This document shows positions 6,053-58,465 of a stretch of 64,000 nt of DNA, piece after piece; the first letter of the stretch is position 1; every line of letters begins with the position of its first letter. The stretch is from a virus (lineage: Duplodnaviria; Heunggongvirae; Uroviricota; Caudoviricetes): IMG/VR virus record IMGVR_UViG_3300020200_002792. One strand, written 5' to 3'. The notes under the pieces were generated by a model. That model saw nothing but the letters and a program-made list of their open reading frames with translations, had not been told where the DNA came from and searched no databases. The position numbers and the translations under genes are program-made.

Positions 6053-6260
6053 TGAAAATGGAAGAATAATTTACGAAAAATATCAAAGCTGGTATGATGT
6101 ACTCCTGGATGGATATAAAATGAGTCTAATGTTCATCCTTGTAGGAATGATAGGTTTAGCCATAACTCCAATTATGGTAATAATCAATTTTTATAGACCT
6201 AAATGTATAGGCTCTGGGTCTGTAAAACCACAAACGGATCATGAATATCATTGTTTATGA
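6036..6260 (+). CDS. small hydrophobic protein (questionable)
   Basis: Internal Met of ORF 5979..6260. Hydrophobic stretch LMFILVGMIGLAITPIMVIINF. Fills the PurA-like/MetRS gap. Confidence 0.25.
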   Translation, partial: YTKTCNENGRIIYEKYQSWYDVLLDGYKMSLMFILVGMIGLAITPIMVIINFYRPKCIGSGSVKPQTDHEYHCL

Positions 6261-9640: not shown

Positions 9641-11116
9641 TTAAACGATAAAATTGGCTATTGACATTCTTGCATAGAATTTAGCACCTTCACGTAGAAG
9701 TTTCTTGCCATAGCGGGTTAAGATACCCTTTCTTGGGCAGAAACTCTCTGGGTCAAGAACAACAGGTGTCTGAGTTAACGGAACGTATGGACAGTAAAAA
9801 TATCCGCTATCCATATAACTGTCTCCCTTGTAACCAGCTAAAAGCTGATTGTTTGGGAATAATGGGTCTTTGTATAGACGCCATCTGTTGTTAATTGTTC
9901 CGACGTACTGGATGCCTAAGCTGCTGGTGAAAGTCTCAGAAGGACTTGGTGCAAAACCAGCGGTTGCGGTTTCGAACATGGAAGCGACTTCAGGAGAAGT
10001 AACAATCCAGTTGCAACCACCACGCAGGGTCTTTCTGTGGACGACTGCGGAAAGTTCGACTACTTTAACATAAAGAGACTCGTACTTCTCTTTAAAGGTT
10101 TCGCCCAAAGCGGTATTAAAGTCCCAAGCGGCAACTGTACCGGCATTGTTACGAAGGTCAGTTAAGACTTCACGGTCGATTTCCAGGTTAATTTCTTGAG
10201 CCAGAACTGCGGTCAATTCGGCTTCGGCGTCTAGGTTATGCTGAGAACGCAAGTCCTGTTGAGCCTCATAGCTCCAAACTGCCTTTAACTTACGGGTACG
10301 GGCAGCGATTTCTTCGGACTCGACAACCAAGTTAATCTCAGGCAAATCTTGGTTGCACTCCATGTTGTACTCATAAGAGACAACAATGTGGTTAGGACCG
10401 GCAGCAGATGTCCACTGAACAACAACTTCGCCAGTCTCAAGATCGATGCTGGAACCAGAAGATTGGCCCTTAGCAGTTAGACCAGAAACCAAGTCGGTGA
10501 AAGTAAATGTACCAGATGCATTAACAGTGAAGGTCTGGATAGCAACGGAACCATCATAGACTGTACCTGTTACTGTTCCGGCGAATACTGGAGTGTGCTG
10601 GAGTGGAGCATAAGTAGCTGTAGTGATAACACCAGCGTCAGTGCTAGAAACTTCATTCTGCACAAACTGAGAAGCGTACCAAATGTCCAGGTTAGCAGTA
10701 CCATCGGCCAACTGCTGCAATGAATTTGCGTCATCGCCAGGGAATCCGCCATTATTGGTTGCGCCCTGAATAGCACCTTTATTGCTGCTATAACGGAAAC
10801 GCAGGTAATATACTAAACCAGTTGGGCCTAGTAATGGCTGTACGGAAACGATCTTGTTAGCGATCAACTGAGGATAGATACGACGAACAAGAGGAATAGA
10901 AATTCTCTTGAACATAGCAATATCGCCAGTGTCGGTAGCGACTTCGTTCATAAGATACTGGTTTTCAAGCAGTACGGCGCAAGCCTCTTTTTGGTGGCGA
11001 TTTTCGGTGAAATTACCTTTGCGATCATATTCACCGATACCTTCTAGCAAGCCAGTTTGAGTCCATTTCTCAGACAGCTGACGAGCTTCGTTTAAAAATC
11101 TAGCATTAGCGTTCAT
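9641..11116 (-). CDS. major capsid protein, T4 gp23-like (HK97 fold)
   Basis: Blocks matching recalled T4 gp23: VRRIYPQLIANKIVSVQPLLGPTGLVYYLR (gp23 VRRAIPNLIAFDICGVQPMNSPTGQVFALR), QQDLRSQHNLDAEAELTAVLAQEINLEIDREV (AQDLRAVHGMDADAELSGILATEIMLEINREV), YKGDSYMDSGYFYCPYVPLT (YKGPNEMDAGIYYAPYVALT). Synteny with scaffold and protease. Confidence 0.85.
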   Translation of the reverse strand: MNANARFLNEARQLSEKWTQTGLLEGIGEYDRKGNFTENRHQKEACAVLLENQYLMNEVATDTGDIAMFKRISIPLVRRIYPQLIANKIVSVQPLLGPTGLVYYLRFRYSSNKGAIQGATNNGGFPGDDANSLQQLADGTANLDIWYASQFVQNEVSSTDAGVITTATYAPLQHTPVFAGTVTGTVYDGSVAIQTFTVNASGTFTFTDLVSGLTAKGQSSGSSIDLETGEVVVQWTSAAGPNHIVVSYEYNMECNQDLPEINLVVESEEIAARTRKLKAVWSYEAQQDLRSQHNLDAEAELTAVLAQEINLEIDREVLTDLRNNAGTVAAWDFNTALGETFKEKYESLYVKVVELSAVVHRKTLRGGCNWIVTSPEVASMFETATAGFAPSPSETFTSSLGIQYVGTINNRWRLYKDPLFPNNQLLAGYKGDSYMDSGYFYCPYVPLTQTPVVLDPESFCPRKGILTRYGKKLLREGAKFYARMSIANFIV

Positions 11117-11133
11117 ATTTTTCCTTTAATTAA

Positions 11134-12054
11134 TTAACTCTTTTTTGTTCCTGCGAGCAAGTTGGCGGTATTACGATCCAGTCCCATATGCTCTAGGAGT
11201 TTTGTGTCAACTGCTTCTCGGACTGCTGGTTTGGCATCAGTTGTAGTCTCTTTAATAACTTCAACTTGCGAATCCTCAACTACACGTCCTTTCCCCTTTA
11301 CATTCTTTGCATTCTGGTTTCTTTCGTGCTTTTCATTCTTTCTACCTTCTGTCAATAATGCCTCATTATTCTTAACAGCTTCAGTTAATTTGGCGTTAAG
11401 CTGAGTATTCTGACGAGAAATATTAATGTTTCTTGATTCAACTAGCTTGACTTGAGCCTTAAGAGCTTCAACTTGCCTGTTGACTTCTTCAAGTTTGCTG
11501 ATTGCGGTTATATCTTCATCTGCTAGGTAATGGGCTGCGATATTTACGATCTTGTCTAATGCAACCTTGTACTCTGCCATGCGTGGATGGCTAAGAACGT
11601 CACGTTTTGCGTTCTCATAAATCTCTGCTCCCTTGAACTGAAGATAGGCGTCTAATTTATCGACAACATATTCTTTCATTTCCTGAAGTTTGCCGTCATA
11701 CTCATCATAAATTTCAGCTTCTCTTGAGTTGGTGGCGTTTTGAACTTCTTGAATCTTTTGTGCAGCGACTGCATACTGCTCATTCATGAATCGTGTCCAC
11801 TCTTCATTCTGGAACTCAAGACGATTACGAAGTTCAGTGATATGAGCGAAAGCTTCCTGATAGCCTTCATAACCTGTTTTTTCTGCTTCTTCTTTTTTAG
11901 CTGTCAATTCTGTGAATGCCTCTTTAAGATTGGCATCGAATTCAGCTTCTAATTCTTCCCTGGCTTCTGCCATTAATGCGTCAACAGCAGCGGTGACTTC
12001 TTTAAGTTGGTCGGCAGGAATAAATTTCTTTAATGCTTCAAGAATCTTGTCCAT
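11134..12054 (-). CDS. prohead scaffolding protein (gp22-like)
   Basis: Acidic, E/K/A-rich predicted coiled coil of 306 aa, between the protease and the major capsid gene. Confidence 0.55.
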   Translation of the reverse strand: MDKILEALKKFIPADQLKEVTAAVDALMAEAREELEAEFDANLKEAFTELTAKKEEAEKTGYEGYQEAFAHITELRNRLEFQNEEWTRFMNEQYAVAAQKIQEVQNATNSREAEIYDEYDGKLQEMKEYVVDKLDAYLQFKGAEIYENAKRDVLSHPRMAEYKVALDKIVNIAAHYLADEDITAISKLEEVNRQVEALKAQVKLVESRNINISRQNTQLNAKLTEAVKNNEALLTEGRKNEKHERNQNAKNVKGKGRVVEDSQVEVIKETTTDAKPAVREAVDTKLLEHMGLDRNTANLLAGTKKS

Positions 12055-16824: not shown

Positions 16825-18861
16825 TTAAATATTTCTTTTCTTTCTTGATTTAAATCGTGCAATTGTGCTTGGGCATTTATGTTTTTTCTTAGTTGCCATT
16901 GATCCCTCATAGAATTTACCGGCAAGATAATCAAACTCTTTACCTTTTGCCCAAGGATAAGACCTTGCCCTATAAAATTTTTGATAGTCTTCTTCACTAA
17001 CTTCAAGTTTCGCATCTACTCTAGTTGAATAAACACTAACGTATTTTTCTTTGTTTTGACAGTTTATATGTATTTTAATATCCATTTTATTCATAATCAA
17101 TTTTAAATCAATATCAGATGCTATGCCCTTTTTTAATTTCAATATTGCTTCTTCTAGTAAAAGTATATTCTTTTTTTCTGATAAATATTTTGGAAGGAGA
17201 TTTGGTTTTACATCCTTTTCTAATTCTATTTTTTCTCTTTCCAATTCTAAAGCTTTTTGCTTCAAGGTAGGCATACTCTCTTTTCCAATAAAGCGATACA
17301 TATTAGAAAGCTGTTCATCTATAAGTTTAATTTTGCTTACAATACCAGAATTTACCTTGTCTAATGCCAAAGAATATAGATATTCAAAATCACCATTACC
17401 AATATCAAATTGGCTTATCAAGTCCTGCATCGATAAAGCGGTATTTATTTTATAAGTGCTTAGATCATAGTTTTGCCAAAATGATAATCTAAAATAATCA
17501 TTTATTATACACACTAACATATTAAGAGCAAAAGACATACAAGCACCTGACTTATTTGTTCTATATCGTGTATTCTCCGATCTAACTACACAATGAACCT
17601 GCCTACCTCCAGAAACAAAATGGCAATCATGCACATCATCCCAAATAAAATCACTCAACCAATGAGCAGGTTTCTTTTCATAATTTCTCCTGCATAAATT
17701 ACTAAGCCCTTTACTTGCTCTAATCTTGTTCACCTTTTTTATATTTTCTGTTTGGCCAACTTCCAATGAAAGTATGTGTTGCCTTAATTCTTTCCATTCA
17801 TCAAATGGCAACAAATTAAAAATAGGCTTGTCTGGGTACACCCAATTTGATTCTGGAACATCATCGGGTTTACATTTCCCTAATCTTGCATTTCTATTCC
17901 TTTCGAATCCATCTGCTTCTTTTTTATTTCTAAAAAACATAGCGGGTGATGATGGTTTTGTAGTTTTACCAATAACAGGCAATCCAACACATACCGAATT
18001 AAGAATAAGTTTGCGACATCTTTCACCAGTCCAACCACAACCATACGAATCTTCAAAATGTTTGGTTAATTCAATAGCCAATTGATTCCAAGTGTAGCCA
18101 ATACCCATTTTTCTTTGCTCTTGACACCAATTAAAAATATACCATAATATTTCTATTCTTTCTTTGTCGCCAGTTAAACAAAGTCGTTGAATGTCCTTTG
18201 TTTTTTCGTGCTTAGACGGATTTTCTTTTTTAATTTCTCCATTAGGCATAATCACTATATGTCGTGTTTTAATACCTAACTTTTTAGCTTTCATTTTACT
18301 AATTATTTCTCGCCAAGTAAAAATATGATTGCCAAACAAATCCTCTCTTCTTACGTCACACAACCAAGGAATATTAAACCCAACATATAACCCCATTTTG
18401 GCCATCGCTTCATGTTTGCCCTTTATTCTTTTTGACAAAGATTCTAATTCATCTGTAGCAATAGCAAACAAACAAGTGGTCATAACTCTTTCAGTAATAG
18501 TTTCTGGAAAACATATATCCCATAACATATTCGGAGTAAAAATTGAGATTTTATGCGGGATAAAGAATTCATTTTTCTGTTTTTCCCATAATTCATAAGT
18601 TCCAAAACGAGTTGCATCTGAATACCACAAATTAAACCCATCAGGATGCAGACAAGATATTTCTTCTAGCTTTTTGAATGAATCTCTTTCAATGCATCCT
18701 CTTTTTTGGCCTTTATCTTCCAGCCACACATCATATTTAATTCCTAAATTATAGGCTAAATTTGCTAAAGTTTCTTTTTGACGATCACAATCTTGGTTAT
18801 TGGTTGAAACACGAACAGCAGCAACATTAATCTTTTTCTCTAAAAATTTCTTATCAGACAT
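16825..18861 (-). CDS. large serine recombinase (resolvase/invertase-type catalytic domain, 678 aa)
   Basis: N-terminal AAVRVSTNNQD...RQKE, the resolvase catalytic serine motif. Size like TnpX/phage large serine integrases. Confidence 0.7.
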   Translation of the reverse strand: MSDKKFLEKKINVAAVRVSTNNQDCDRQKETLANLAYNLGIKYDVWLEDKGQKRGCIERDSFKKLEEISCLHPDGFNLWYSDATRFGTYELWEKQKNEFFIPHKISIFTPNMLWDICFPETITERVMTTCLFAIATDELESLSKRIKGKHEAMAKMGLYVGFNIPWLCDVRREDLFGNHIFTWREIISKMKAKKLGIKTRHIVIMPNGEIKKENPSKHEKTKDIQRLCLTGDKERIEILWYIFNWCQEQRKMGIGYTWNQLAIELTKHFEDSYGCGWTGERCRKLILNSVCVGLPVIGKTTKPSSPAMFFRNKKEADGFERNRNARLGKCKPDDVPESNWVYPDKPIFNLLPFDEWKELRQHILSLEVGQTENIKKVNKIRASKGLSNLCRRNYEKKPAHWLSDFIWDDVHDCHFVSGGRQVHCVVRSENTRYRTNKSGACMSFALNMLVCIINDYFRLSFWQNYDLSTYKINTALSMQDLISQFDIGNGDFEYLYSLALDKVNSGIVSKIKLIDEQLSNMYRFIGKESMPTLKQKALELEREKIELEKDVKPNLLPKYLSEKKNILLLEEAILKLKKGIASDIDLKLIMNKMDIKIHINCQNKEKYVSVYSTRVDAKLEVSEEDYQKFYRARSYPWAKGKEFDYLAGKFYEGSMATKKKHKCPSTIARFKSRKKRNI

Positions 18862-22345: not shown

Positions 22346-23182
22346 TTATACTACGACTCTACCTTTTAATTCTTCCCAATCTTTTTCTGGCCTTACTTCA
22401 AGATTCTTTTCCCACACACCATTCATAACCTTTGGGTCAATACTCAACTCCTTAGCCAAACACATTAAAGCGTTTAAATCTTTAGGGAAACATGCAAGGC
22501 CAAATCCACACTTAGAATCCGGTCCAGGCACAGCCCAATGCGATGTTCCTAAACGCTTATCTTTTGTACTATATTCCACAACTTTATCATAGTCAATGCC
22601 AAGTTTTTGACATATTTGGTATATTTCATTAGCAAAAGAAACCTTTGTGGCTAAAAAACAATTTGTTACATATTTAACCATTTCAGCTATAGTCGAACTA
22701 GTTTTTGTAGTAGGAACATCTGGATAAGCTTGTTGATACATTTGTTTTACGACATCAACAGCATCATGCGGCCCACCAATAATAATCCTGTCTTGTTTCG
22801 CAAAATCCTCTAAAAAATTTGCTTCCCTTAAAAATTCTGGATTAAATACACATTTTACATGCTTTGATTTATTATTTATTCTTTCAGTGGTTCCAGGAAC
22901 AATCGTAGACTTTATAATTACTATTTGTTCTTTTCCTACAGCATCTATTTCATCTATAACGCTTTCGACAATACTAGTATCACATGATCCATCTTCTTTC
23001 ATTGGAGTAGGAACACAAACAAAAATTGGCCCATCAACTGCATCAACTAATTCAGCAACAGAAAATATAGAAGAATCAATAGGTTTTATGTGCCTGTCAT
23101 AAAAAAACACTTCAAATGCATGATTCATTCCAGAAATAACAGCATTGCCAACAAAGCCTTTGCCTATGACACCAAGTTTCAT
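22346..23182 (-). CDS. UDP-glucose/GDP-mannose 6-dehydrogenase family protein, truncated at the start of the C-terminal UDP-sugar-binding domain
   Basis: IGKGFVGNAV; VCVPTP; KSTIVPGTT; FNPEFLREANF; GFGLACFPKD (catalytic Cys). Ends at ...LKGRVVV, where the C-terminal domain of Ugd would begin. Confidence 0.6.
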   Translation of the reverse strand: MKLGVIGKGFVGNAVISGMNHAFEVFFYDRHIKPIDSSIFSVAELVDAVDGPIFVCVPTPMKEDGSCDTSIVESVIDEIDAVGKEQIVIIKSTIVPGTTERINNKSKHVKCVFNPEFLREANFLEDFAKQDRIIIGGPHDAVDVVKQMYQQAYPDVPTTKTSSTIAEMVKYVTNCFLATKVSFANEIYQICQKLGIDYDKVVEYSTKDKRLGTSHWAVPGPDSKCGFGLACFPKDLNALMCLAKELSIDPKVMNGVWEKNLEVRPEKDWEELKGRVVV

Positions 23183-23454
23183 TTGAAAGCTTCCTCCACG
23201 ATATCTTTAGCAAATTTATTATAAATTCTTTTCTTTTTTAATATCTTGTCTACTTTATCAACAAGATATCTTTTTGTTTCAATTAGTGAATTTCTATAGT
23301 CTTCATCTAACTTGTTTTTATAATTAATGAATTTTTCTTCTTCCAATGCCATGAATGTATTAACTTTTTCGTTAAGTTCATCCATTTCTTCATAACATTT
23401 AAGTTGAATATGCTCTACTTCACGTTCCATTTTTCGATATAGTTTACTCATCAA
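23179..23454 (-). CDS. hypothetical small protein
   Basis: Charged, coiled-coil-like. Part of a same-strand overlapping array. Confidence 0.3.
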   Translation of the reverse strand: MMSKLYRKMEREVEHIQLKCYEEMDELNEKVNTFMALEEEKFINYKNKLDEDYRNSLIETKRYLVDKVDKILKKKRIYNKFAKDIVEEAFK

Positions 23455-23683
23455 TATGCTCTCTTTTAGCTAAAACTTTTTTGGTTAATGCATGGTTGTC
23501 TTTCCATGCTTGGCTACTTTTGACTATTTTTCCGGCCCGTCCGGTATGCCAATCATCATCCCAATCAGGAGTTTCGTGACAACTATGCAAACTCCTTAAA
23601 TAAGCCAATAAATTACGTGTAGACAATTTTTCAAGTTCACTTTCAGTTAAAAGTTTTGATTTACCACGTTTTCCCATAAACAA
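23444..23683 (-). CDS. hypothetical small protein
   Basis: Same-strand overlapping array. Confidence 0.3.
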   Translation of the reverse strand: MFMGKRGKSKLLTESELEKLSTRNLLAYLRSLHSCHETPDWDDDWHTGRAGKIVKSSQAWKDNHALTKKVLAKREHIDE

Positions 23684-23942
23684 ATGTCCTTATTTTATCT
23701 GTCAATTCTTTATCAGTAACAACAGTAAGACTATTTCTACTAGGAATAAAATAAATCATAGTATTTTCTTCTATACCTTCATCCCACACCTTCTTTGCTT
23801 CTTCATCCCTATACCAAAAAAAACTATCAATTTCATCACACTCAATAACGGCATTTTCCCATTCAACAAAATTCATAATTTCTTTAATGACTTTTGTTGG
23901 GTTATTTGTTGGAATTATTGTATCGTAGCCACCTATTTCCAT
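23661..23942 (-). CDS. hypothetical small protein
   Basis: Same-strand overlapping array. Confidence 0.3.
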   Translation of the reverse strand: MEIGGYDTIIPTNNPTKVIKEIMNFVEWENAVIECDEIDSFFWYRDEEAKKVWDEGIEENTMIYFIPSRNSLTVVTDKELTDKIRTFVYGKTW

Positions 23943-25396
23943 TACTTTAATCCTTGCGCCATTTGGAAACCTTTTTCGTCATGATTAACAGTCCAAGCTA
24001 CTTTGTGAACTACTGCATCGAAAGTACCTGCTGCTGAAGGCCAACCGTATCCACTGGCCTTAACACCACCAAAAATTTGTTGTGATTCAGCCCCCACGCC
24101 TGGCAAATTAGCATACCCCAAACCGAAATCACAATTGTCCCTGACATATCTCATTTTACGATAGTCATTAGTACAAACAGCACAAGATAAACCAAATTCT
24201 GTGTCATTGTATATTTCTACTGCCTCTTCTAAACTATCAAATGGAATTATTGCGACATGTGGGCCAAAAACCTCTTGATGAAGAAATGGCAGATCACTCC
24301 ATTCACAGGTATAAACATGAGGAGTTAGAAAATAACCCTTTCTATTTAATCTTTCCCCCTTTAACAAAATATCAGCATTCCCTTCAGTGCTTCTATTATA
24401 ATCTTCTACCTTTTTTAATTGGGTAGAACTAATAAGTGGCCCCATGAAAACATCAGGTTCATCAAAAGCACCAACTTTTATATTCTTAGAAGCTTCAACA
24501 AAACGTTCAATAAATTCCTGCACCCCACTTCTTTCAATCAACAATCTTCCAGAAGAAACACATCTTTGTCCACTTAATTTATAAGCACTAATCACACATG
24601 CATTAACAGCTAAATCCATATCAGCATCAGAAAAGACTATAACCGCTGACTTGGAACCCATTTCACAAGAACAGGTTTTTCCAGTTGCAACGGCATCTTC
24701 TTTAATAAATTGTCCTACTGCTACACTTCCAGTAAAACAAATATGGTTTATATCCTTGTGGGCCGAAAGAAAATGTCCAGTAAAGCCATCTCCATGAACA
24801 AGATTAAAAACACCTTTAGGAAAACCTGCATCATGATAAAGCTCTGCCATCATTTCACTAGCAGCAGGTGCATCTTCTGATGGTTTAAGAACAACTGTGT
24901 TTCCTTCAAGAATGGCAGGAGCAGCACACCAGGCAGCACCAATAGCACAGCAAAAATTCCAGGGGGCTATCACGCCCACAACACCTTTAGGTTTTCTGAT
25001 TACATACGAATCCTTTTCAGCTATCTCAGAAGGTATAATTTCTCCGTTAGGCATTCGTCCTTTAGAGAAGGTATATTGAAGCATATGCAGAGTTTCATTT
25101 ACTTCTGCTACGCTTTCGTTTAAAGTTTTACCTGTTTCATTTGATATGCATTGCACTAAAGAATCAAATCTAGCTTTAAGCAAACCACACATATTATCAA
25201 AATATTCGGCTCTTTTTACACGACTAACCTTTCTCCACTCAGCAAATACATTTTTAGCACTTTTAACTGCATCATTTACTTCTTCGTATCTAGAATTTTG
25301 AAATTCACCTAATGATTCTTCTGTTGCTGGATTTATATTTGAGAACTCTTTACGATTTGGGATAAAGACACCATTAACATAATTATTACCGTTCAT
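23942..25396 (-). CDS. NAD(P)-dependent aldehyde dehydrogenase
   Basis: ALDH motifs VIAPWNF, LKPSE, EMGSKSA (ELGGKSP) and GQRCVSSGR (catalytic Cys). Confidence 0.85.
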   Translation of the reverse strand: MNGNNYVNGVFIPNRKEFSNINPATEESLGEFQNSRYEEVNDAVKSAKNVFAEWRKVSRVKRAEYFDNMCGLLKARFDSLVQCISNETGKTLNESVAEVNETLHMLQYTFSKGRMPNGEIIPSEIAEKDSYVIRKPKGVVGVIAPWNFCCAIGAAWCAAPAILEGNTVVLKPSEDAPAASEMMAELYHDAGFPKGVFNLVHGDGFTGHFLSAHKDINHICFTGSVAVGQFIKEDAVATGKTCSCEMGSKSAVIVFSDADMDLAVNACVISAYKLSGQRCVSSGRLLIERSGVQEFIERFVEASKNIKVGAFDEPDVFMGPLISSTQLKKVEDYNRSTEGNADILLKGERLNRKGYFLTPHVYTCEWSDLPFLHQEVFGPHVAIIPFDSLEEAVEIYNDTEFGLSCAVCTNDYRKMRYVRDNCDFGLGYANLPGVGAESQQIFGGVKASGYGWPSAAGTFDAVVHKVAWTVNHDEKGFQMAQGLK

Positions 25397-25701
25397 AAAA
25401 CGCTCCTCCTTTATTGCCGAAAGTTTTTATATAACTCTCGCCAGATATAGAATAAAAATAATTATAAATATCTTTTAGAGCTTGCACAATACCAGTTTCA
25501 TTTAATTGGCAACGAACTGCTGCAATTTAATAGGAAGGTCAGCCGAATTCTGGTTTTTGAAGTGTTTCTTTAAGGGATAGTCTATAACCTTTATACCATC
25601 CCCATGTATTAGGCCCGGTCCAAAGATTTGATATATATAATATTATTTTACGTTCTTGAAGAGTCAGCATTCATATAGATTAATATAAGTTCAATAATTA
25701 G

Positions 25702-26091
25702 TCAATTGAACTTTCTGTTTAAAAGTTCTAAAATCTTAATTCTTTCTTTTAATTTTTCAATTTCTTCAGCGGCTTCTTGAGCTAACTTATCTGGGAATAC
25801 AATTCTTGGGTCATATCTCGATTTGAGCCTTTCTAATATCCATTCAGAATTATGGTATTTTACACTCATGTCAAAAGAAAAAGTTAATTTGACGCCCTTA
25901 TAAATTTCTTCTACATAATTTTTAACAACATTATATTCACAAATAGAAACAATGCTGTCGCTAGAAACCAGTTGAATTTTCATGCTATTCAAATCTGGAT
26001 TAAATGAACATGCGAATATCGATCCGTCATCAAGTTCGACAAAAACACGTTCTGCATTGCATCCTTGAACTTTACAATTAATTACTTTCAT
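25702..26091 (-). CDS. hypothetical protein
   Basis: No recognised motif. Confidence 0.3.
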   Translation of the reverse strand: MKVINCKVQGCNAERVFVELDDGSIFACSFNPDLNSMKIQLVSSDSIVSICEYNVVKNYVEEIYKGVKLTFSFDMSVKYHNSEWILERLKSRYDPRIVFPDKLAQEAAEEIEKLKERIKILELLNRKFN

Positions 26092-26369
26092 TATGTTTCC
26101 TCTGAATCATTTAACAGATCAATAATTTCTTGTTGGGTAATAACCTTAAAACTATCAAACGTATTGATATCTATTGCTATTGGTGCTTTATTAATCTCTG
26201 TTAAAATGATAGCAAATAACGATCCATTTGTTGCGTGAAAGGTTGTTTCATACAAGCCATAGAAAACCGAACTGTTCCCACCATAAGTAAACCTACAATA
26301 ATCCCCTTCTTCGACTAATGTATTATCAAAAAAACTAACTAAACTTCCATATTCATCACAATTTAACAT
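26091..26369 (-). CDS. hypothetical protein
   Basis: No recognised motif. Confidence 0.3.
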   Translation of the reverse strand: MLNCDEYGSLVSFFDNTLVEEGDYCRFTYGGNSSVFYGLYETTFHATNGSLFAIILTEINKAPIAIDINTFDSFKVITQQEIIDLLNDSEET

Positions 26370-26370
26370 T

Positions 26371-26892
26371 TTAATCTCCTAAAGGTTTAATTAAACAAAA
26401 TATTCTTGACCCATTTAACTTAGGTTTCTGGTCAATAATAGCCTCTTCTCCTAATGCACTAATAACATAGTTCATTACTTTGAATCCTTCTTCTTTATGC
26501 GTAATTTCCCTATTTTTAAATTCTAGACTTAATTGCACTCTTTTGCCTTCAGATAAGAATTTTTTAATATTATTGATTTTAATATCGACATCGTGTATTT
26601 GTATAGCAGGACGCAGCCTGATTTCTTTAGTTTCAACAAAAGCTTCTCTTTGTTTTTTATGCTGTTCTTTTTCTTTCTGCTTCTGTTGATAGCGATACTT
26701 ATTATATTCAACGATGTGGCAGACGGGTGGATTGGCTTGAGGTACAACTTCAACTAGGTCTAAACCAGCTTCTTGGGCCATTGTCCTTGCTTTATCGGTA
26801 GGCATTATACCTATTTGTTCACCATCTCTTATTACCCTTACATTTGGAACTCTTATTTGAAAATTGACTCTGGTAAATTTCTTGTTTTGCAT
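26371..26892 (-). CDS. infC: translation initiation factor IF-3, bacterial type
   Basis: IRV..VRVI...GEQIGIM...AQEAGLDLVEV.P.ANPPVC.I..Y.KY and the C-domain KEIRLRP..DVDIK align along the whole length with bacterial IF3. Confidence 0.8.
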   Translation of the reverse strand: MQNKKFTRVNFQIRVPNVRVIRDGEQIGIMPTDKARTMAQEAGLDLVEVVPQANPPVCHIVEYNKYRYQQKQKEKEQHKKQREAFVETKEIRLRPAIQIHDVDIKINNIKKFLSEGKRVQLSLEFKNREITHKEEGFKVMNYVISALGEEAIIDQKPKLNGSRIFCLIKPLGD

Positions 26893-26895
26893 AAT

Positions 26896-28542
26896 CTAAT
26901 TTGTCTTAACTTTCTTAGAAATAGCTTCTGCCATCCTTTTCAAAGCTGGTGATATATCAAGAGAATCAACTTCACAATTTATTACGTAAAAATTCCCACT
27001 TTTAAAAGCTTTTTCCACAGCTACATCCAATTCCTTTTCGTTTTTCACTATCATGCCATCTCCTATTCCTAATAATTCGTTAACTTTATGATAGTTCCAA
27101 TTCAAAACATCATTGAATTTTCCATCTAATATAAATCTTTCTGTTGTATATCCTTTATTATTCAAAACAAAAATAATTGGGTTAAGCTTCCATCTAGCAA
27201 TTGTACTTAATTCAGTAAAAGACATTTGGAAAGCACCATCACCCACAATAACAATAGGACGTAATTTTTTATTAGCAAGACCAGCACCTAAAGCAGCAGG
27301 AATTGCAAAACCCATACTTAAATAAAACGCTTGCCCAAGAAAAGTATCGACACTTTGAGTATGCGTTAAATCAGAAGCCCCTAATAATGAGTCACCAACA
27401 TCAGCAATAATCAATGTATCTTCACTAATTATAGAATCAATCTTTTCAAACAACCTAACCGTAGTAAGTTTAACGTCATTGGCTATAAATTTAGGCAGCT
27501 TTTCCTTTGAAGGCAAAGTAGGCGTTTCACGTTTTTTAATATCTTGCCCAAATAAATTCTTGCAAAAGTCGATAAAATGCACATTGGAATAAGCATGATT
27601 TTTAACTTTTAGCTGGTCCACTGTACAAGTAACCATATCACGCTTATTGAACGCTTTAGATGGTCTATAACCAACTGTAGCTTCTGTAATTACTTCGCCA
27701 CAAACCAATAAACAATCAGAAGACTCAACCATATCCCTTACATGCTCTTTACTACTGTTGCTTCCTGCGTAAACACCTATGTATAAAGGGTGCGTTTCAT
27801 TGACAACAGATTTACTTAACAAAGTGCAAGCAACAGGAATGTTATGTCTTTCAGCAAACTTAATTAACTCTTTGCCAAGTTGAAATCTAGCTATCTCAAC
27901 GCCTGCCAAAATTACAGGAGATTTGGCATTATTAATCCAAGTTAGAACTTCTTCAATAGCATCTTCTAGATTGTGCTGATCAGTAGGTTTAGTTTTTGGA
28001 GTGCCTTGAGTATAGACATCATAATCAACAAACTTAGAAACTATATCTCTAGGTAATTCAATATAGACTGGTTGTTTTTTGTACTTTAAACATTCAAGAA
28101 CACGGTCGATTTCATAACCAGCAGTAGCGGGATTATCAAGTACCGTTTGGGCACAAGTTATATCTTTAAAGCAAGTTTTTTGGTAATCATATGTGCCAAC
28201 GCTATGATGTAATGGAGCATCGCCACGTTCTGTCATGCCTGGAGAGCCGCTAATTACAATTACAGAAGACCTTTCAGCAGATGCACCGGCAATTGAATTG
28301 GTTAATTTTAAGGCACCTACATTATAAGTGGCAATAACGCAACCAAGTCCCTTTATTCTAGCATAAGCATCAGCAGCAAAGCCAGCACCGGCTTCGTCAA
28401 CGCAATTTACTACTTCTATTTTTTTACTTTTAGAAGCAAGTTGACCAAAATAATTTAATATGTAATCTCCTGGAACACCAAAGACGTGTTTAATTCCAGC
28501 ATTTTCTAATCTTTCAATTAAAAATTCTGCTACACTTAGCAT
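26896..28542 (-). CDS. thiamine-diphosphate-dependent 2-keto-acid decarboxylase (pyruvate/indolepyruvate/KdcA family)
   Basis: N-terminal GVPGDYILNYF; ThDP motif IVIVGDGAFQMSFTELSTIARWKLNPIIFVLNNKGYTTERF. 548 aa. Confidence 0.75.
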   Translation of the reverse strand: MLSVAEFLIERLENAGIKHVFGVPGDYILNYFGQLASKSKKIEVVNCVDEAGAGFAADAYARIKGLGCVIATYNVGALKLTNSIAGASAERSSVIVISGSPGMTERGDAPLHHSVGTYDYQKTCFKDITCAQTVLDNPATAGYEIDRVLECLKYKKQPVYIELPRDIVSKFVDYDVYTQGTPKTKPTDQHNLEDAIEEVLTWINNAKSPVILAGVEIARFQLGKELIKFAERHNIPVACTLLSKSVVNETHPLYIGVYAGSNSSKEHVRDMVESSDCLLVCGEVITEATVGYRPSKAFNKRDMVTCTVDQLKVKNHAYSNVHFIDFCKNLFGQDIKKRETPTLPSKEKLPKFIANDVKLTTVRLFEKIDSIISEDTLIIADVGDSLLGASDLTHTQSVDTFLGQAFYLSMGFAIPAALGAGLANKKLRPIVIVGDGAFQMSFTELSTIARWKLNPIIFVLNNKGYTTERFILDGKFNDVLNWNYHKVNELLGIGDGMIVKNEKELDVAVEKAFKSGNFYVINCEVDSLDISPALKRMAEAISKKVKTN

Positions 28543-29360: not shown

Positions 29361-29441
29361 TAATTTATATATCAATTTACATAAAAAAACAGAAAGAAGA
29401 ACTTAATCTTCTTTCTGTTTTAAAAAGAAAGAACTGCTACA

Positions 29442-41334: not shown

Positions 41335-44300
41335 TCAGCAAACAAGTTCATGTTCGCTCCTCAAAACACAAAGCCTAATATCATCTTCTTTACGTTTGGC
41401 TACCTTATGTCTTTCCCATTTAGGAGGACTTTCAAAAGTAAATCTCCTAAAGCCACCTGACGGCCCCTTTAACCTCATCCTTAACAACTTGCCTGGAATT
41501 ATTTCTTCTTTAAATCTTTCAAAGTCTTCTTTCCATACCTGAATCTGTTGCATTTCGCTATTTGCATCCTCTGCTTCGACTAACCAATATGTGTTGTTTT
41601 TCTTAGACATCATGCTCTTGACAGTCAAAATCCTTAATTCAACAGGATTATTTTCCTCTATACATACTTTAAAATCTTCAAATGTCATCCCACCACAATA
41701 GTCAGGACTCTTAGAAAGAGGATGATCCCATAAAAACCCATAATAAGCAAGTTGGGATGCTTCTAAAGATTCATAGTTTTCAAGAATCTTGTCAGCTATT
41801 TCATATTCTTCAGAAACAAAAGGTTTTTCTTCCAAACCAGTCTTAGAAGTTTCCAATCCTCTATAATAATTCTTTAAAACTGTCAAACCTTTCTTCAAAC
41901 TGTTCTTCATACAATAATCATAAATTTCCTTATTGTTATCTGGAAAATGCCATAACTCCTCTGGGACGATTGCCTCAATTTGTTCCTTCAATTCCTTTTG
42001 TCTTCTAATCCACCGCCTTCTTTTTTCATCAATTCTCTTCCTAGACTTCTTAACCCATTCAGCATACTTCAATAAATGGACAACATCTTCGCCAAAAATT
42101 CTAAGACCAATCAAAGGTTTAAGAACTGCCGTATCCGTACCAAATTTATTCAAAAAGTCATCAAAATCATTATAGGGTTGGTTATCTACTACCCTTTGGA
42201 CTACAGCATCTCCAATCCCAACAATATTAGAAATTCCATAATATATTTCTTCATCAACAATAGCTGCTTTAGCTTTAGATTTGCTAATATCGATTGGATT
42301 TACCTTGATATTATGCAATTCAGCTTCCATTTTGTATTCTTTGAGTTTGTCAACCTTATCTTCACAAACAAGACTAGATGTATAAAACTCAATTGGATAA
42401 TGAGCTTTAAAATAAAGAAGCCGCATAGCAATAACACAGTAACCGCAAGAATGACTATTATGGACTAGAATGCCATTAGCAATATAATTATGATTATTTT
42501 TAATACAAATATCATAAGTTTTATCTTTGCCGCATTTCTTAATTGATTTTACTTGCGTCCAAAAAATATTACTGTTAACTATTTTCAATAATTCAACATG
42601 CTTAAAAGTTTTAGCAATTATTTCAATAGTTTTTCTTAAAAAAGACTTCTTGTTTTTATCTTTCAAAAGAATTCTATGAGTCAGTCCACATTTATCTAAG
42701 CAATATCTGCCATACGACTTTCTAATTTCAAGGAGATAAGGCATTACAAGATTATATGGCAGCATATCACGTTCGTTACAGAAGATACTATATTTATAGA
42801 GAAAACTTTGATCACATTTTTTAGAACACATATATTTGCCTATACTTTTAGCAAATCTTTCCCTCCAATTATACCCTCCAACTTTAACTATATAACCTAT
42901 TTTTCTCATTCCCCGATAATTAAAAAATTTCTTATTTAACACAGAAACAAAACCTATTCTGAGCAAAAGTTCTTGCACTTGCTCTGCTAATTTCAAAGAA
43001 GATGTGGCATAGTAAGTGTTGCTTCTATCTACACATCCATCCCCTTCCCACATTCGTCCAAGCAATAACATGATTTGCTTAGAAGATAATTGAAAAACCC
43101 AATCAGGTAAAAATTTTTGAGGAGCTTTTTTCCAACACAAATCATTTTTCCTGGCCCATTGCAACAAATTAGTGGGAACATATTTTTTATAACTTCCAGA
43201 ATGGCCTGAATTAATACAGATTACCCACTTATCTTTGTAGTATTGCTTAGTAATATGAGACTTTCCAAATTTCTTAGCTGCCTTTACAAAATCATCAACA
43301 TAAAATTCATCTTGATTAAAAAAATACAAAGAACTAGGATGACAGGTATTACCTTCTGTAATTAAACCAGCTAAAACTATCAGTTCATGACTTTCAACTT
43401 TATGAGTGGCTACACAATCTCTTTTGGAAGGTAAAGCTACCCAATCACCAAGCTTCAAATCACTTAAAGGAATCCATCCTATATCAGTTAAAAATTTATG
43501 TTTTTCTGTACATTTAATAGCATGGTGAGATTTAGTGATTAATTCAAAAATTGATTTTTCACCATTATCAAAAACATCTTCTATAACAGATATTTCAAAT
43601 TTGCCATTCTTATCTAAAGAACCAGTCTTCATTCCCTTTTTAGCTTCACGGACCTTAAATGGTATTCCAAATTCATCGTATAAAACAGAATCGCCATGCA
43701 AGCACTTGTTGAAGCTGTACCCACTAAATGCCTCTATTTGAGTCCAAAATTCATTCATCTTTTCCAAACTATATCCCAATCGTTTCATGCCATTCTCAAT
43801 GAAACGATTTTTATAAGTCTGGAATAAATCAAGCCTCTTTTTGGATATAGCTTTTCTGACAATCTCACAATCTTTTAATGGCACATCACCTATTTGATTC
43901 AATATTCGCATGATTTGTTCTTGATAGATCATACAACCATAAGTTTCTCCCAAAATAGGTTTCAAAAGAGGATGAAGTCCATAAGCTTCACCCTTTTTTC
44001 TTTTTATATAAACTTCTGATTGTGCAATGGCCCCTGGACGATAAACGCTAAGATACGCCATCAAATCATTGAACCCATCAACACCGCCTTTTTTAACCAA
44101 TTGTCTCATGCCTTCGCTATCAAACTGAAATATGCCTCTTAAATCTGCTTTATTTGCCATTTCAATCGATTTAGGAGCATTCAAATAAGAAGTATCTGAC
44201 CAATCTTTCTTTCCAGGCTTTGCACAAATACTAGTTAAACCATGTCTATCTTTTACTAATTTTTTAGCTATAGCTATTTGTTTTAAATTAGACAAAGACA

Positions 44301-45075: not shown

Positions 45076-45279
45076 TCAGTCAATACTAAATAGACCCCCA
45101 ATAGAATTTGGATAAGCACTTAAATCATCCCCCTGATACTCGCTAACTCTCACAACAGACAACCATTTATTGCTTTTCATATATTTATTCGCTTCTTCCT
45201 CATCAATAAAAACCTTAGTTAAAAACCAAGGAGAAAAAAGCCCACCATAATCATCTTCATAAATTAAGTAGACTTTCAT
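45076..45279 (-). CDS. hypothetical small protein
   Basis: 67 aa, overlaps the upstream gene stop. Confidence 0.3.
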   Translation of the reverse strand: MKVYLIYEDDYGGLFSPWFLTKVFIDEEEANKYMKSNKWLSVVRVSEYQGDDLSAYPNSIGGLFSID

Positions 45280-47442: not shown

Positions 47443-48036
47443 CTAAGGGAAAGTCAAATAACTTGAAACTGCTTTACAAAACTCAACCAAATTATTCTCA
47501 GGCCATTCAAATTTGGCAAGTTGTGCTATTAAAGCTACAAACTGAATATTGCCTTTTATATAACCTTTACCACTATCTATCCTATCTAAACTTGCCCTGT
47601 CGGGAGTGCGTGGTAATTTTGAACCAATAGTAGGCAAATTTTTAAGTTGCCATCCAGTATACGGGCAAACACCTTTTTGTTTTTCCCACTGTTCTTTAAG
47701 ATCAATTAATGTAACGCCACATTCTTTATTATTTCTTCTTATAATGTTTCGATAATGCCAACGAAAAGGCGAATATTCATCTGGTGTCCGTACTTTTAAA
47801 TTTTCAGGTCTACCACCACCTAAATGTTTATAATTATCCTTTCCTGCACATCTAAGAGAACAATAAATTTTCCTGCCTAGCTTTTCATTTCTTGATAGCT
47901 CACCAACTTCTCTTAAAAATGTTTTACCACAAATAAAACACTGAACTTCTTTTTTCATAAAAACCTCCATTATAACATAGTAAGTTATAATGGAGGTTGT
48001 CGAAATTTTATTGGAGGCGTTGGGGATTGAACCCAA
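47443..48036 (-). CDS. HNH_3-type homing endonuclease, paralog of 32654..33244; true start probably an internal Met near 47955
   Basis: CFICGK...CSLRCAG...GVCPYTG...ASLDRIDSGKGYIKGNIQFV...N. The N-terminal 25 codons of the ORF overlap the tmRNA 3' end. Confidence 0.55.
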   Translation of the reverse strand: MGSIPNASNKISTTSIITYYVIMEVFMKKEVQCFICGKTFLREVGELSRNEKLGRKIYCSLRCAGKDNYKHLGGGRPENLKVRTPDEYSPFRWHYRNIIRRNNKECGVTLIDLKEQWEKQKGVCPYTGWQLKNLPTIGSKLPRTPDRASLDRIDSGKGYIKGNIQFVALIAQLAKFEWPENNLVEFCKAVSSYLTFP

Positions 48037-48362: not shown

Positions 48363-48435
48363 GATTTGTCAAAGACCTACTAATCTATTTATTCTATAGT
48401 AAAAAGTTTTAAAATCAAGCCCCCTATATAGAAAT

Positions 48436-49221: not shown

Positions 49222-49236
49222 TTTTTCTACTTTCAA

Positions 49237-49377: not shown

Positions 49378-49381
49378 AGTT

Positions 49382-57232: not shown

Positions 57233-57240
57233 GTTAATCC

Positions 57241-58458: not shown

Positions 58459-58465
58459 TTATAGC

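What the first reader, a model, noticed from the sequence alone, without database searches (positions are those of the whole stretch)
22346..28542. Auxiliary metabolic cluster: 2-keto-acid decarboxylase plus aldehyde dehydrogenase
A ThDP-dependent pyruvate/indolepyruvate/KdcA-type decarboxylase (26896..28542) and an ALDH (23942..25396) sit on the same strand within 5 kb, with IF3 and two unknown genes between them. Together they would convert a 2-keto acid to an aldehyde and then to the acid (Ehrlich-type or indole-3-acetic-acid-type route). This is an unusual phage-borne pairing that could reroute host amino-acid or pyruvate metabolism during infection.
Basis: partly seen in the sequence, partly recalled or inferred. 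Interest (0 to 1): 0.55.

Follow-up and report, generated by a model that had tools for sequence, protein, structure and literature searches.

The report
Two unlinked metabolic genes, huge phage
A giant bacteriophage really does carry an intact keto-acid decarboxylase and an aldehyde dehydrogenase 1.5 kb apart, but comparison with about 110 related viral loci indicates they are two separately inherited genes, the dehydrogenase looking like a lysine-breakdown enzyme, rather than two steps of one pathway.

Summary
The genes exist as described, all on the minus strand. They are a 548-aa ThDP decarboxylase of the PDC/IPDC/KdcA family (26896-28542), IF3, two ORFans and a 484-aa ALDH (23942-25396), inside a huge-phage genome. 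Catalytic residues of both enzymes are intact and invariant across relatives.

The proposed two-step route (keto acid to aldehyde to acid) is not supported.
- The decarboxylase is a core gene of one clade of roughly 0.4-0.67 Mb phages. It always sits next to IF3, is monophyletic, and is closest (43-48%) to Planctomycetota/Verrucomicrobiota genes.
- Only 15 of 28 such loci carry the ALDH downstream. One related locus keeps the ALDH but lacks the decarboxylase. In another genome the two genes lie about 59 kb apart.
- The ALDH family is much wider. In 74 of 80 ALDH-selected viral loci there is no decarboxylase nearby. There the ALDH sits in an operon with homologues of lysine ε-aminotransferase, lysine-6-dehydrogenase/saccharopine dehydrogenase and arginine dihydrolase, a VOC protein and a short UGDH-like dehydrogenase.
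- All 95 phage ALDHs keep the ALDH7A1 residues that bind α-aminoadipate.

Best reading: two independent auxiliary metabolic genes. No paper describing either was found. Interest is moderate.

The parts
26896..28542 (-). ThDP-dependent 2-oxo-acid decarboxylase of the PDC/IPDC/KdcA family, 548 aa ('KDC')
   Evidence: It has all three TPP domains. The best solved relatives are KivD/KdcA at E 7e-82. D26, E50, H112, H113, E468, GDG434-436 and N462 are present. Pocket residues are A288, V382, L386, L387, T467, I471, M537 and I541. It scores below the curated cutoffs of TIGR03394 (329 vs 554.5) and TIGR03393 (296 vs 946).
26371..26892 (-). Translation initiation factor IF3, starting 3 nt after the decarboxylase stop codon
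   Evidence: It matches IF3_N and IF3_C and scores 166 bits against TIGR00168, cutoff 60. An IF3 homologue follows the decarboxylase within about 0.1-2 kb in nearly every related phage locus.
26091..26369 (-). ORFan, 92 aa
   Evidence: No Pfam or PHROG match. Found only on contigs identical to the window.
25702..26091 (-). ORFan, 129 aa
   Evidence: No Pfam or PHROG match. Found only on contigs identical to the window.
23942..25396 (-). ALDH7-like aldehyde dehydrogenase, 484 aa; predicted alpha-aminoadipate (or glutamate) semialdehyde dehydrogenase
   Evidence: It scores 440 bits against Aldedh. N147, E245, C279 and K171/E174 are invariant. The ALDH7A1 substrate-binding residues E121, F168, W175, R301, A462, E463, F468 and Q506-G507 correspond to E101, F148, W156, R278, A436, E437, F442 and Q481-G482, all invariant in 95 phage sequences. 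An AAGGAGG ribosome-binding site precedes the ATG.
23179..23942 (-). Three small ORFs (93, 79 and 91 aa) between the ALDH and the short UGDH-like gene
   Evidence: No significant family match. Public gene calls on identical contigs agree.
22346..23182 (-). Short UDP-glucose-dehydrogenase-like protein, 278 aa, lacking the C-terminal UDP-binding domain. It recurs downstream of this ALDH in both phage contexts.
   Evidence: It matches the UDPG_MGDP_dh N and central domains only, and scores 199 bits against TIGR03026. The catalytic GFGLACFPKD cysteine is kept. It lies downstream of the ALDH in L174, L175, L177, L179, L181, L182 and L216, and in 22 of 74 operon loci.
29386..29421 (-). Terminator-like hairpin (15-bp stem plus T run) after the PspA gene; probable upstream boundary of the transcription unit
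   Evidence: It is the only minus-strand terminator-like site between 22000 and 30300. This is a consensus match only.

Best explanation
The region holds two auxiliary metabolic genes that were acquired and are kept separately. They sit inside a long syntenic 'host-takeover' block of a huge phage: ribosomal protein S21, peptide deformylase, PspA, decarboxylase, IF3, ALDH, short UGDH-like gene, GroES, DnaJ, dUTPase.

(1) The decarboxylase.
- Shown: it belongs to the PDC family and is catalytically intact. It is a clade-defining gene of phages on contigs up to about 0.4-0.67 Mb. It is monophyletic and sister to Planctomycetota/Verrucomicrobiota homologues.
- Inferred: with ThDP and Mg2+ it non-oxidatively decarboxylates a 2-oxo acid to an aldehyde and CO2. 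Its pocket is aliphatic and roomier than those of pyruvate decarboxylases. This points to a branched, medium-chain or aromatic 2-oxo acid rather than pyruvate. Host enzymes would deal with the aldehyde.

(2) The ALDH.
- Shown: it belongs to a phage-specific ALDH lineage that keeps every ALDH7A1 residue that ion-pairs or stacks with alpha-aminoadipate. In most other viral contigs it is operonic with homologues of lysine epsilon-aminotransferase, lysine-6-dehydrogenase/saccharopine dehydrogenase and arginine dihydrolase.
- Inferred: it oxidises alpha-aminoadipate semialdehyde/P6C (or the shorter glutamate semialdehyde) with NAD(P)+. In this phage the semialdehyde would have to come from host enzymes, because those partner genes are absent here.

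The two enzymes are therefore most likely not consecutive steps.
For: Decarboxylase:
- Domains and solved relatives are as stated.
- Catalytic residues are kept in 120 phage homologues: D26, E50 and E468 are invariant, H112 is kept in 119 and H113 in 118. They are also kept in nearly all of 138 cellular homologues.
- Pocket residues were mapped through the KdcA alignment.
- Homologues of 55-70% identity lie on contigs of 540-670 kb.
- The nearest cellular homologues (43-48%) are mostly Planctomycetota and Verrucomicrobiota MAGs.
- Phage sequences are monophyletic in an NJ tree.

Independence of the two genes:
- The ALDH lies downstream of the decarboxylase in 15 of 28 decarboxylase-selected loci and is absent there in 13.
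- L253 keeps the block and the ALDH but has no decarboxylase.
- On IMGVR_UViG_3300044796_000657 the two genes lie about 59 kb apart.
- 74 of 80 ALDH-selected IMG/VR loci have no decarboxylase within 10 kb.
- Decarboxylase pocket residues are the same with and without the ALDH.
- Cellular decarboxylase loci have an ALDH nearby in only 2 of about 155 cases.

ALDH function:
- Conserved same-strand neighbours in the 74 loci are a VOC protein (52), a LysDH/SDH-like protein (51), a LAT-like protein (17), an ArgZ-like protein (17) and the short UGDH-like protein (22). A LysDH-like or LAT-like gene is present in 61 of 74.
- The LAT-like protein best matches M. tuberculosis L-lysine epsilon-aminotransferase at E 2e-103, against 1.7e-45 for GABA aminotransferase.
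- The SDH-like protein best matches PH1688, then human aminoadipic semialdehyde synthase.
- The DDAH-like protein best matches Sll1336/Alr4995 at E 2e-56.
- The ALDH7A1 recognition residues named in PMC11362210 and PMC13162559 are invariant in 95 phage ALDHs.
- Only ALDH7-type structures (2jg7, 4pxn, 10fm) align through the extreme C-terminus.
- The NCBIfam P6C-dehydrogenase model aligns to residue 484.
Against: - In 15 huge-phage loci the two genes stay on the same strand within 1.5-6.7 kb. No terminator-like site lies between them here.
- Their pairwise distances co-vary (r = 0.79 over 16 loci). Any two genes of a vertically inherited block would do the same.
- ALDH7 enzymes are known to accept other aldehydes as well, so the ALDH could still oxidise the decarboxylase product.
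- The window and the decarboxylase-block loci lack the LAT-like, LysDH-like, ArgZ-like and VOC partners, so the ALDH's role here may have drifted.
- Overall identity to ALDH7A1 is only 28.6%. The protein scores below every NCBIfam equivalog cutoff.
It was checked only by its agreement with the residue numbers given in two papers.
- IMG/VR contigs are fragments, and the scans are pattern-seeded. Absence within 10 kb is therefore not absence from the genome.
- The trees are NJ trees without support values.
Confidence: 0.55

Rival explanations
1. One reading: the decarboxylase and the ALDH act one after the other. They turn a 2-oxo acid (pyruvate, a branched-chain keto acid, or indole- or phenylpyruvate) into the aldehyde and then the acid. 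This would be an oxidative Ehrlich-type or IAA-type bypass that drains host keto acids and yields NAD(P)H.
For: - The chemistry is sensible, and both enzymes are intact.
- The genes share a strand, lie 1.5 kb apart, and have no predicted terminator between them.
- The arrangement recurs in 15 huge-phage loci, and the two genes' pairwise distances co-vary.
- Both ALDH-selected contigs taken from the protein database had the decarboxylase 2-7 kb upstream.
Against: - Each gene occurs without the other within the clade: 13 loci lack the ALDH, L253 lacks the decarboxylase, and one genome separates them by about 59 kb.
- Basal decarboxylase lineages lack the ALDH.
- 74 of 80 ALDH loci have other, lysine/arginine-type partners.
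- The ALDH keeps the Glu/Arg pair that binds an alpha-amino acid group. That fits poorly with hydrophobic aldehydes.
- IF3 and unrelated genes always lie between the two.
- Even the gene that most constantly adjoins the decarboxylase ('up370') has a virion-type fold. Adjacency in this block therefore does not imply shared function.
- No aminotransferase gene is present in the window.
Confidence: 0.2
2. Loose coupling: the ALDH is a broad-range aldehyde scavenger. It protects the infected cell from reactive aldehydes in general, including whatever the decarboxylase releases, without being a dedicated pathway partner.
For: - ALDH7-family enzymes are reported to oxidise several aldehydes, including nonanal and aminoaldehydes (PMC11362210).
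- The ALDH persists in huge phages that have none of its lysine-pathway partners.
- Its neighbours include stress and chaperone genes: PspA, GroES and DnaJ.
Against: - The strict invariance of the E101/R278 pair and of the anchor loop in 95 sequences argues for a specific amino-acid-semialdehyde substrate.
- In most phages the ALDH is tightly operonic with enzymes that make such a semialdehyde.
Confidence: 0.17
3. The decarboxylase works mainly as a carboligase or on a non-amino-acid-derived substrate. Candidates are acyloin formation or a sugar-branching reaction linked to the glycosyltransferase and DegT genes seen near it in some relatives. Its decarboxylase annotation would then be misleading.
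For: - PDC-family enzymes are known to catalyse carboligation as a side reaction (established knowledge).
- Some relatives carry DegT aminotransferase, GNAT and GT2 genes downstream of the decarboxylase-IF3 pair.
Against: - The full decarboxylase catalytic set (D26, H112, H113, E468) is essentially invariant.
- The sugar genes appear only in a subset of relatives and are separated from the decarboxylase by IF3 and an unknown gene.
- Known sugar-branching ThDP enzymes are acetolactate-synthase-like. Here those families score far lower than the PDC family.
Confidence: 0.05

Closest known systems
KdcA / KivD, branched-chain 2-keto-acid decarboxylases of Lactococcus lactis (PDB 2vbf, 6vgs, 9msa)
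   Same: They are the best solved relatives, at E 1e-80 to 7e-82 over the full length. They share the three-domain ThDP fold, the GDG-X-NN motif and the catalytic residues D26, E49/50, H112, H113 and E462/468.
   Different: Identity is only 31.5%. Six of the eight pocket residues differ: S286 to A, Q377 to V, F381 to L, F382 to L, V461 to T and F542 to I. The phage and PVC clade forms its own subfamily with T467, L386 and L541. No substrate has been determined for any member of it.
Indolepyruvate and phenylpyruvate decarboxylases (NCBIfam TIGR03393, TIGR03394; PDB 1ovm, 2nxw)
   Same: Same family, and these are the top NCBIfam models. JGI labels many of the homologues 'indolepyruvate decarboxylase'.
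   Different: The scores are far below the curated cutoffs, 296 vs 946 and 329 vs 554.5. Valine sits where KdcA has Q377. From my memory of the E. cloacae enzyme, IPDC has a glutamine there that contacts the indole. No tryptophan aminotransferase is present.
ALDH7A1 / antiquitin and bacterial P6C (alpha-aminoadipate semialdehyde) dehydrogenases
   Same: All the residues reported to bind alpha-aminoadipate are invariant in the phage family: E121, R301, F168, W175, F468, the A462 anchor loop and the C-terminal Q-G. Only ALDH7-type structures align to the last residue. In other phages the gene neighbours homologues of LAT and LysDH, the enzymes that make AASA.
   Different: Identity is 28.6%, and T303 is valine. 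The protein scores below the NCBIfam P6C-dehydrogenase cutoff, 260 vs 730. The phage lineage is isolated: the nearest non-clade representatives are 35-38% identical. In the window its AASA-producing partners are missing.
Auxiliary metabolic and translation genes of huge phages (Al-Shayeb et al. 2020, PMC7162821)
   Same: Same type of genome. LR756511.1 from that kind of data set is syntenic with the window. IF3, S21, peptide deformylase and aminoacyl-tRNA synthetase genes are as described there.
   Different: That paper's main text mentions neither a decarboxylase nor an aldehyde dehydrogenase. Six further full-text searches found no description of either gene in phages.

Membership tests
PDC-like ThDP-dependent 2-oxo-acid decarboxylases | Three-domain architecture (PYR/TPP_N, middle domain, PP/TPP_C) | tested here: met
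   PF02776, PF00205 and PF02775 are all present and nearly full length.
PDC-like ThDP-dependent 2-oxo-acid decarboxylases | ThDP/Mg2+-binding motif GDG-X(24-27)-NN and the cofactor-activating Glu | tested here: met
   G434-D435-G436 ... N461-N462 and E50 are present. D435, N462 and E50 are invariant in 120 phage and 138 cellular homologues.
PDC-like ThDP-dependent 2-oxo-acid decarboxylases | Catalytic Asp, His-His and Glu (KdcA D26, H112, H113, E462) | tested here: met
   D26, H112, H113 and E468 align to the KdcA residues. D26 and E468 are invariant, and H112 and H113 are kept in 119 and 118 of the 120 phage homologues.
PDC-like ThDP-dependent 2-oxo-acid decarboxylases | Measured decarboxylase activity and substrate | not testable with these tools
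   Needs an enzyme assay.
Indolepyruvate decarboxylase (IPDC) / phenylpyruvate decarboxylase equivalogs | Score above the curated NCBIfam cutoff | tested here: not met
   TIGR03393 scores 296 bits against a cutoff of 946. TIGR03394 scores 329 bits against 554.5.
KdcA/KivD branched-chain keto-acid decarboxylase | Substrate-pocket residues S286, Q377, F381, F382, V461, I465, M538, F542 | tested here: not met
   Only I465 and M538 are kept; the other six differ.
ALDH superfamily (PF00171) | Catalytic Cys, general-base Glu, oxyanion Asn and the NAD(P)-binding Lys/Glu | tested here: met
   C279, E245, N147 and K171/E174 are invariant in 20 clade members and in 95 phage sequences.
ALDH7 (alpha-aminoadipate semialdehyde / P6C dehydrogenase) | The Glu121/Arg301 ion-pair residues, the aromatic box F168/W175/F468, the A462 anchor loop and the C-terminal crook | tested here: met
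   E101, R278, F148, W156, F442, A436-E437 and Q481-G482 are invariant in 95 sequences. T303 is Val. The residue roles come from PMC11362210 and PMC13162559.
ALDH7 (alpha-aminoadipate semialdehyde / P6C dehydrogenase) | Score above the curated cutoff of the bacterial P6C-dehydrogenase model | tested here: not met
   NF050084 scores 260 bits against a cutoff of 730. Membership is therefore by signature and gene context, not by HMM.
2-aminomuconate / hydroxymuconate semialdehyde dehydrogenases (best full-length PDB hit) | Carboxylate-binding Arg120 and Arg464 (4i1w numbering) | tested here: not met
   These positions align to E101 and A436 in the alignment, and both are invariant in the clade. 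The roles of the two Arg residues are from memory.
Ehrlich / indole-3-pyruvate (IAA) pathway | An aminotransferase supplying the 2-oxo acid, encoded together with the decarboxylase and dehydrogenase | tested here: not met
   No aminotransferase domain appears in any of the 53 ORFs of at least 120 aa in the window (two read from public gene calls).
Dedicated two-gene metabolic module (functional coupling of decarboxylase and ALDH) | Co-occurrence: each gene is rarely found without the other | tested here: not met
   The decarboxylase occurs without a downstream ALDH in 13 of 28 loci. The ALDH occurs without the decarboxylase in L253 and in 74 of 80 IMG/VR loci. The two are about 59 kb apart on one contig.
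Phage auxiliary metabolic gene | A metabolic gene of cellular type flanked on both sides by phage genes on a viral genome | tested here: met
   The capsid gene, prohead protease and PolIII alpha lie on either side. The block is syntenic on IMG/VR contigs and on LR756511.1. GC content matches the genome.
Phage auxiliary metabolic gene | Expression during infection | not testable with these tools
   Needs transcriptomes or proteomes of infected cells. The host is unknown.

The most novel reading that the evidence does not exclude
The ALDH marks an undescribed, phage-specific ALDH7-like lineage. It anchors a virus-encoded lysine to alpha-aminoadipate catabolic operon, with an arginine to ornithine branch: VOC protein, ALDH, ArgZ-like, LAT-like, short UGDH-like, LysDH-like. 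The window holds a reduced form of it, the ALDH plus the short UGDH-like gene.

Separately, the decarboxylase is a clade-defining gene that an ancestor of these very large phages captured once from Planctomycetota/Verrucomicrobiota-type bacteria. This would hint at the host range of the largest known phages. It would add two new classes to the list of phage auxiliary metabolism.
Probability: 0.4. Interest if true: 0.6.

Novelty: new member of a known kind. Interest (0 to 1): 0.42.

Why it matters
- Physical closeness of two chemically compatible genes in a huge-phage genome is weak evidence for a pathway. These genomes keep long syntenic blocks of unrelated functions.
- If the revised reading holds, huge phages carry a conserved ThDP decarboxylase of unknown substrate. 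That makes it a clean target for enzymology and a possible clue that the hosts are PVC bacteria.
- Many uncultured phages would also encode amino-acid (lysine/arginine) catabolic enzymes built around an ALDH7-like dehydrogenase. I found no description of this kind of viral metabolic reprogramming in the searchable literature.

Tried and rejected
- **Cellular gene context of the decarboxylase.** Clustering the neighbours of about 155 cellular loci gave no conserved partner, only DUF1501, FG-GAP, a histidine kinase and the like. This was uninformative.
- **AMSDH-type function for the ALDH (best full-length PDB hit).** The two carboxylate-binding arginines are absent. Rejected.
- **Alpha-ketoglutaric semialdehyde dehydrogenase (top NCBIfam model and the JGI label of distant relatives).** The score is 362 against a cutoff of 770. 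Not adopted.
- **Phosphonopyruvate decarboxylase plus PhnY-type ALDH.** This idea came from PMC8942020. The decarboxylase has the three-domain PDC architecture and its best family matches are PDC-type decarboxylases. No PEP-mutase domain turned up in any Pfam scan of the window or of related loci. Rejected.
- **IDO-like gene near the decarboxylase in relatives as a hint of tryptophan metabolism.** It is not present in the window. Left open.
- **A 48-residue C-terminal query against the PDB.** It found nothing useful.
- **IMG/VR loci L194-L214, with a PDC-family gene of 31-34% identity.** They form one separate low-GC lineage. Not pursued.
- **Literature.** Nine full-text searches found no report of these genes in phages.

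Full report
**What is in the sequence**

All genes of the finding lie on the minus strand.

| Window coordinates | Length | Identity | Evidence |
|---|---|---|---|
| 26896-28542 | 548 aa | ThDP decarboxylase; TPP_enzyme_N, TPP_enzyme_M and TPP_enzyme_C | |
| 26371-26892 | 173 aa | IF3; TIGR00168 166 bits, cutoff 60 | |
| 26091-26369 | 92 aa | no Pfam or PHROG match | |
| 25702-26091 | 129 aa | no Pfam or PHROG match | |
| 23942-25396 | 484 aa | ALDH; Aldedh 440 bits | |
| 23179-23942 | 93, 79, 91 aa | three small ORFs | |
| 22346-23182 | 278 aa | short UDP-glucose-dehydrogenase-like protein, no C-terminal UDP-binding domain | |

The window is phage DNA. It encodes a gp23-type major capsid protein, a prohead protease, PolIII alpha with inteins, PrkA/YeaH/SpoVR, MetRS, PspA, GroES and DnaJ. 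Identical copies of the region occur on JGI, ENA and Logan metagenome contigs.

The 'same strand' detail is uninformative, because 45 of 53 ORFs of at least 120 aa are on that strand.

**The decarboxylase**

- The best solved relatives are Lactococcus KivD/KdcA (E 7e-82 to 1e-80), followed by PPDC, PDCs and IPDC. Identity to KdcA is 31.5%.
- I mapped residues through the KdcA alignment. Its numbering reproduces the residues known from the KdcA/KivD literature. The catalytic set D26, E50, H112, H113 and E468 is present.
- In 120 phage homologues D26, E50, E468, D435 and N462 are invariant, and H112 and H113 are kept in 119 and 118. All are kept in nearly all of 138 cellular homologues.
The enzyme looks active.
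- The pocket is aliphatic: A288, V382, L386, L387, T467, I471, M537, I541. It differs from KdcA at six of eight positions. T467, L386 and L541 are shared by the phage sequences and their cellular sisters.
- The protein scores below the curated cutoffs for the IPDC and PPDC equivalogs.
- The substrate is therefore unknown. From the pocket I infer a hydrophobic, non-pyruvate 2-oxo acid.

**Where the decarboxylase occurs**

- Homologues of 55-70% identity are numerous. Many sit on contigs of 540-670 kb, including LR756511.1, a 595-kb 'uncultured phage' record.
- In every related phage locus an IF3 homologue follows within about 0.1-2 kb downstream. The pair lies inside a long syntenic block: S21, peptide deformylase, (IDO-like), PspA, dCMP deaminase, 'up370', decarboxylase, IF3, an unknown protein of about 400 aa, a HesB-like protein, (ALDH), (short UGDH-like), GroES, DnaJ, dUTPase, GT2.
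- The closest cellular relatives (43-48%) are mostly Planctomycetota and Verrucomicrobiota MAGs.
- There the gene stands alone, with no conserved neighbour. An ALDH lies within 10 kb in only 2 of about 155 loci.
- In an NJ tree the phage sequences are monophyletic and sister to these cellular ones.

**Are the two genes coupled?**

- Among 28 distinct decarboxylase-selected phage loci with enough flank, 15 have the ALDH 1.5-6.7 kb downstream and 13 do not. The basal branches lack it.
- Pocket residues of the decarboxylase are the same with and without the ALDH.
- I then searched IMG/VR starting from the ALDH. That gave 139 matching stretches, of which 80 loci at 47-58% identity were kept.
- Only five of the 80 have the decarboxylase within 10 kb.
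- One locus, L253, has the whole block with the ALDH but no decarboxylase.
- On the 430-kb contig IMGVR_UViG_3300044796_000657 the two genes lie about 59 kb apart.
- Adjacency in this block therefore does not indicate shared metabolism.
- The co-variation of decarboxylase and ALDH distances (r = 0.79) is what any two vertically inherited block genes would show.

**What the ALDH is**

- In the other 74 ALDH-selected loci the gene sits in a same-strand operon.

| Neighbour in the operon | Loci out of 74 |
|---|---|
| 184-aa VOC/glyoxalase-fold protein, directly upstream | 52 |
| 368-aa saccharopine-dehydrogenase-fold protein (LysDH/SDH-like) | 51 |
| 402-aa class III aminotransferase (LAT-like) | 17 |
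| 267-aa amidinotransferase-fold protein (ArgZ-like) | 17 |
| short UGDH-like protein | 22 |
| LysDH-like or LAT-like present | 61 |

- The aminotransferase matches M. tuberculosis L-lysine epsilon-aminotransferase at E 2e-103. The next family, GABA aminotransferase, scores 1.7e-45.
- The saccharopine-dehydrogenase-fold protein best matches PH1688, then human alpha-aminoadipic semialdehyde synthase. From memory, PH1688 is the Pyrococcus L-lysine dehydrogenase.
- The amidinotransferase-fold protein matches Sll1336/Alr4995 at E 2e-56. From memory, these are the cyanobacterial arginine dihydrolase ArgZ/AgrE.
- The two lysine enzymes both make alpha-aminoadipate semialdehyde.
- Two papers state that ALDH7A1 holds its product aminoadipate by ion pairs with Glu121 and Arg301. 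They also name the G461/A462 anchor loop and the aromatic residues F168, W175 and F468 (PMC11362210 and PMC13162559).
Its residues matched at every numbered position that I checked.
- These positions are invariant in all 95 sequences: E101, R278 (directly before the catalytic C279), A436-E437, F148, W156, F442 and the C-terminal Q481-G482. Only T303 differs; it is Val.
- Only ALDH7-type structures align to the very C-terminus.
- In contrast, the arginines of the best full-length PDB hit (AMSDH) are absent.
- The ALDH lineage is isolated. The next non-clade representatives are 35-38% identical.
- None of the lysine or arginine partner genes is in the window or in the decarboxylase-block loci.
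- Here the ALDH keeps only its other recurrent companion, the short UGDH-like gene.

**Conclusion**

The gene calls, the phage origin and the catalytic integrity are all confirmed. The proposed decarboxylase-to-ALDH pathway is not supported.

The better-supported model is two independent auxiliary metabolic genes:
- a decarboxylase related to those of PVC bacteria, core to one huge-phage clade, with an unknown and probably hydrophobic 2-oxo-acid substrate;
- an ALDH7-like amino-acid-semialdehyde dehydrogenase that in other phages belongs to a lysine/arginine catabolic operon.

A loose link remains possible, in which the ALDH also mops up the decarboxylase's aldehyde.

I found no paper describing either gene family in phages.

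**Limits**

- The trees are NJ trees without support values.
- My ORF calls for the loci are crude.
- IMG/VR contigs are fragments, and the collection scans are pattern-seeded. 'Absent within 10 kb' is therefore not 'absent from the genome'.
- No terminator-like site separates the two genes in the window, so co-transcription cannot be excluded.
- The host is unknown.

Noticed in passing
window 22346-23182 (-): A short (278 aa) UDP-glucose-dehydrogenase-like protein. It has the NAD-binding and central domains and the catalytic Cys (GFGLACFPKD) but no C-terminal UDP-binding domain. The same short form recurs downstream of the ALDH in huge-phage relatives and in 22 of 74 lysine-operon loci, so it is a conserved truncated form, not a pseudogene. 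Its substrate is unknown.
   Followed up: partly
IMG/VR loci L220-L296, e.g. L241 9400-15000, L243 600-5700, L291 9400-14500: A conserved phage operon: VOC/glyoxalase-fold protein, ALDH7-like ALDH, ArgZ-like arginine dihydrolase domain, lysine-epsilon-aminotransferase-like protein, short UGDH-like protein, lysine-dehydrogenase/saccharopine-dehydrogenase-like protein. It looks like virus-encoded lysine/arginine catabolism. No description was found in the literature.
   Followed up: partly
L170 6375-7367; L216 6570-7424; L217 2380-3435: An indoleamine-2,3-dioxygenase-family gene (PF01231, E 5e-20 to 2e-27) lies 3-7.5 kb upstream of the decarboxylase in three of the window's closer relatives. Weaker matches occur in six more loci. 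It is absent from the window.
   Followed up: partly
L173 5059-6171 and homologues (P0415-P0534): 'up370' is a very conserved protein (60-76% identity over a core of about 260 aa) with a Cys-rich N-terminus. It lies directly upstream of the decarboxylase in relatives. It has no Pfam family. Its AlphaFold model is all-beta and resembles phage capsid, tail and baseplate domains. It is absent from the window.
   Followed up: yes
L253 6800-13300: A relative (IMGVR_UViG_3300035670_013167, 107 kb, 30% GC) keeps the whole block, dCMP deaminase, up370, IF3, the unknown protein, HesB-like, ALDH, GroES and DnaJ, but has no decarboxylase gene between up370 and IF3.
   Followed up: yes
window 41335-45048 (-) and 49983-52547 (-): DNA polymerase III alpha is encoded as two separate ORFs about 5 kb apart. 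The PHP/N-terminal part is upstream and the finger/HHH part downstream. Each carries an intein with a LAGLIDADG endonuclease, and other genes lie in between. Relatives L170 and L216 have a single gene of 1177-1186 aa.
   Followed up: no
window 55619-61876 (-): A PrkA, YeaH-like (DUF444-type), SpoVR trio, a bacterial stress/sporulation-type operon, is present in a phage. An intein interrupts PrkA. A further Hint/homing-endonuclease insertion sits in the AAA protein at 45276-47345.
   Followed up: no
window 4928-6052 (+) and 6251-7783 (+): An adenylosuccinate-synthetase homologue (374 aa; its match to PurA starts only at PurA residue ~54) lies next to a methionyl-tRNA synthetase. Whether it is a PurZ-type enzyme was not resolved. 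The best PDB hits are ordinary PurA at E 4e-22.
   Followed up: partly
window 10001-12000 and 48001-50000: There are two local GC peaks, 43.5% and 38.6%, against about 33% elsewhere. The first covers the major capsid gene and its neighbour.
   Followed up: no
IMG/VR loci L194-L214: A second, unrelated set of 'viral' contigs carries a PDC-family gene only 31-34% identical to the window's. They form one closely related lineage of 30-37% GC, often with a DnaJ gene about 7 kb upstream. Their nature, phage or cellular, was not checked.
   Followed up: no
window 16825-18861 (-): A 678-aa protein has a weak serine-recombinase (Resolvase) N-terminal domain. The adjacent 202-aa protein has an integrase-repeat match. 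This is unexpected in a huge lytic-type phage.
   Followed up: no
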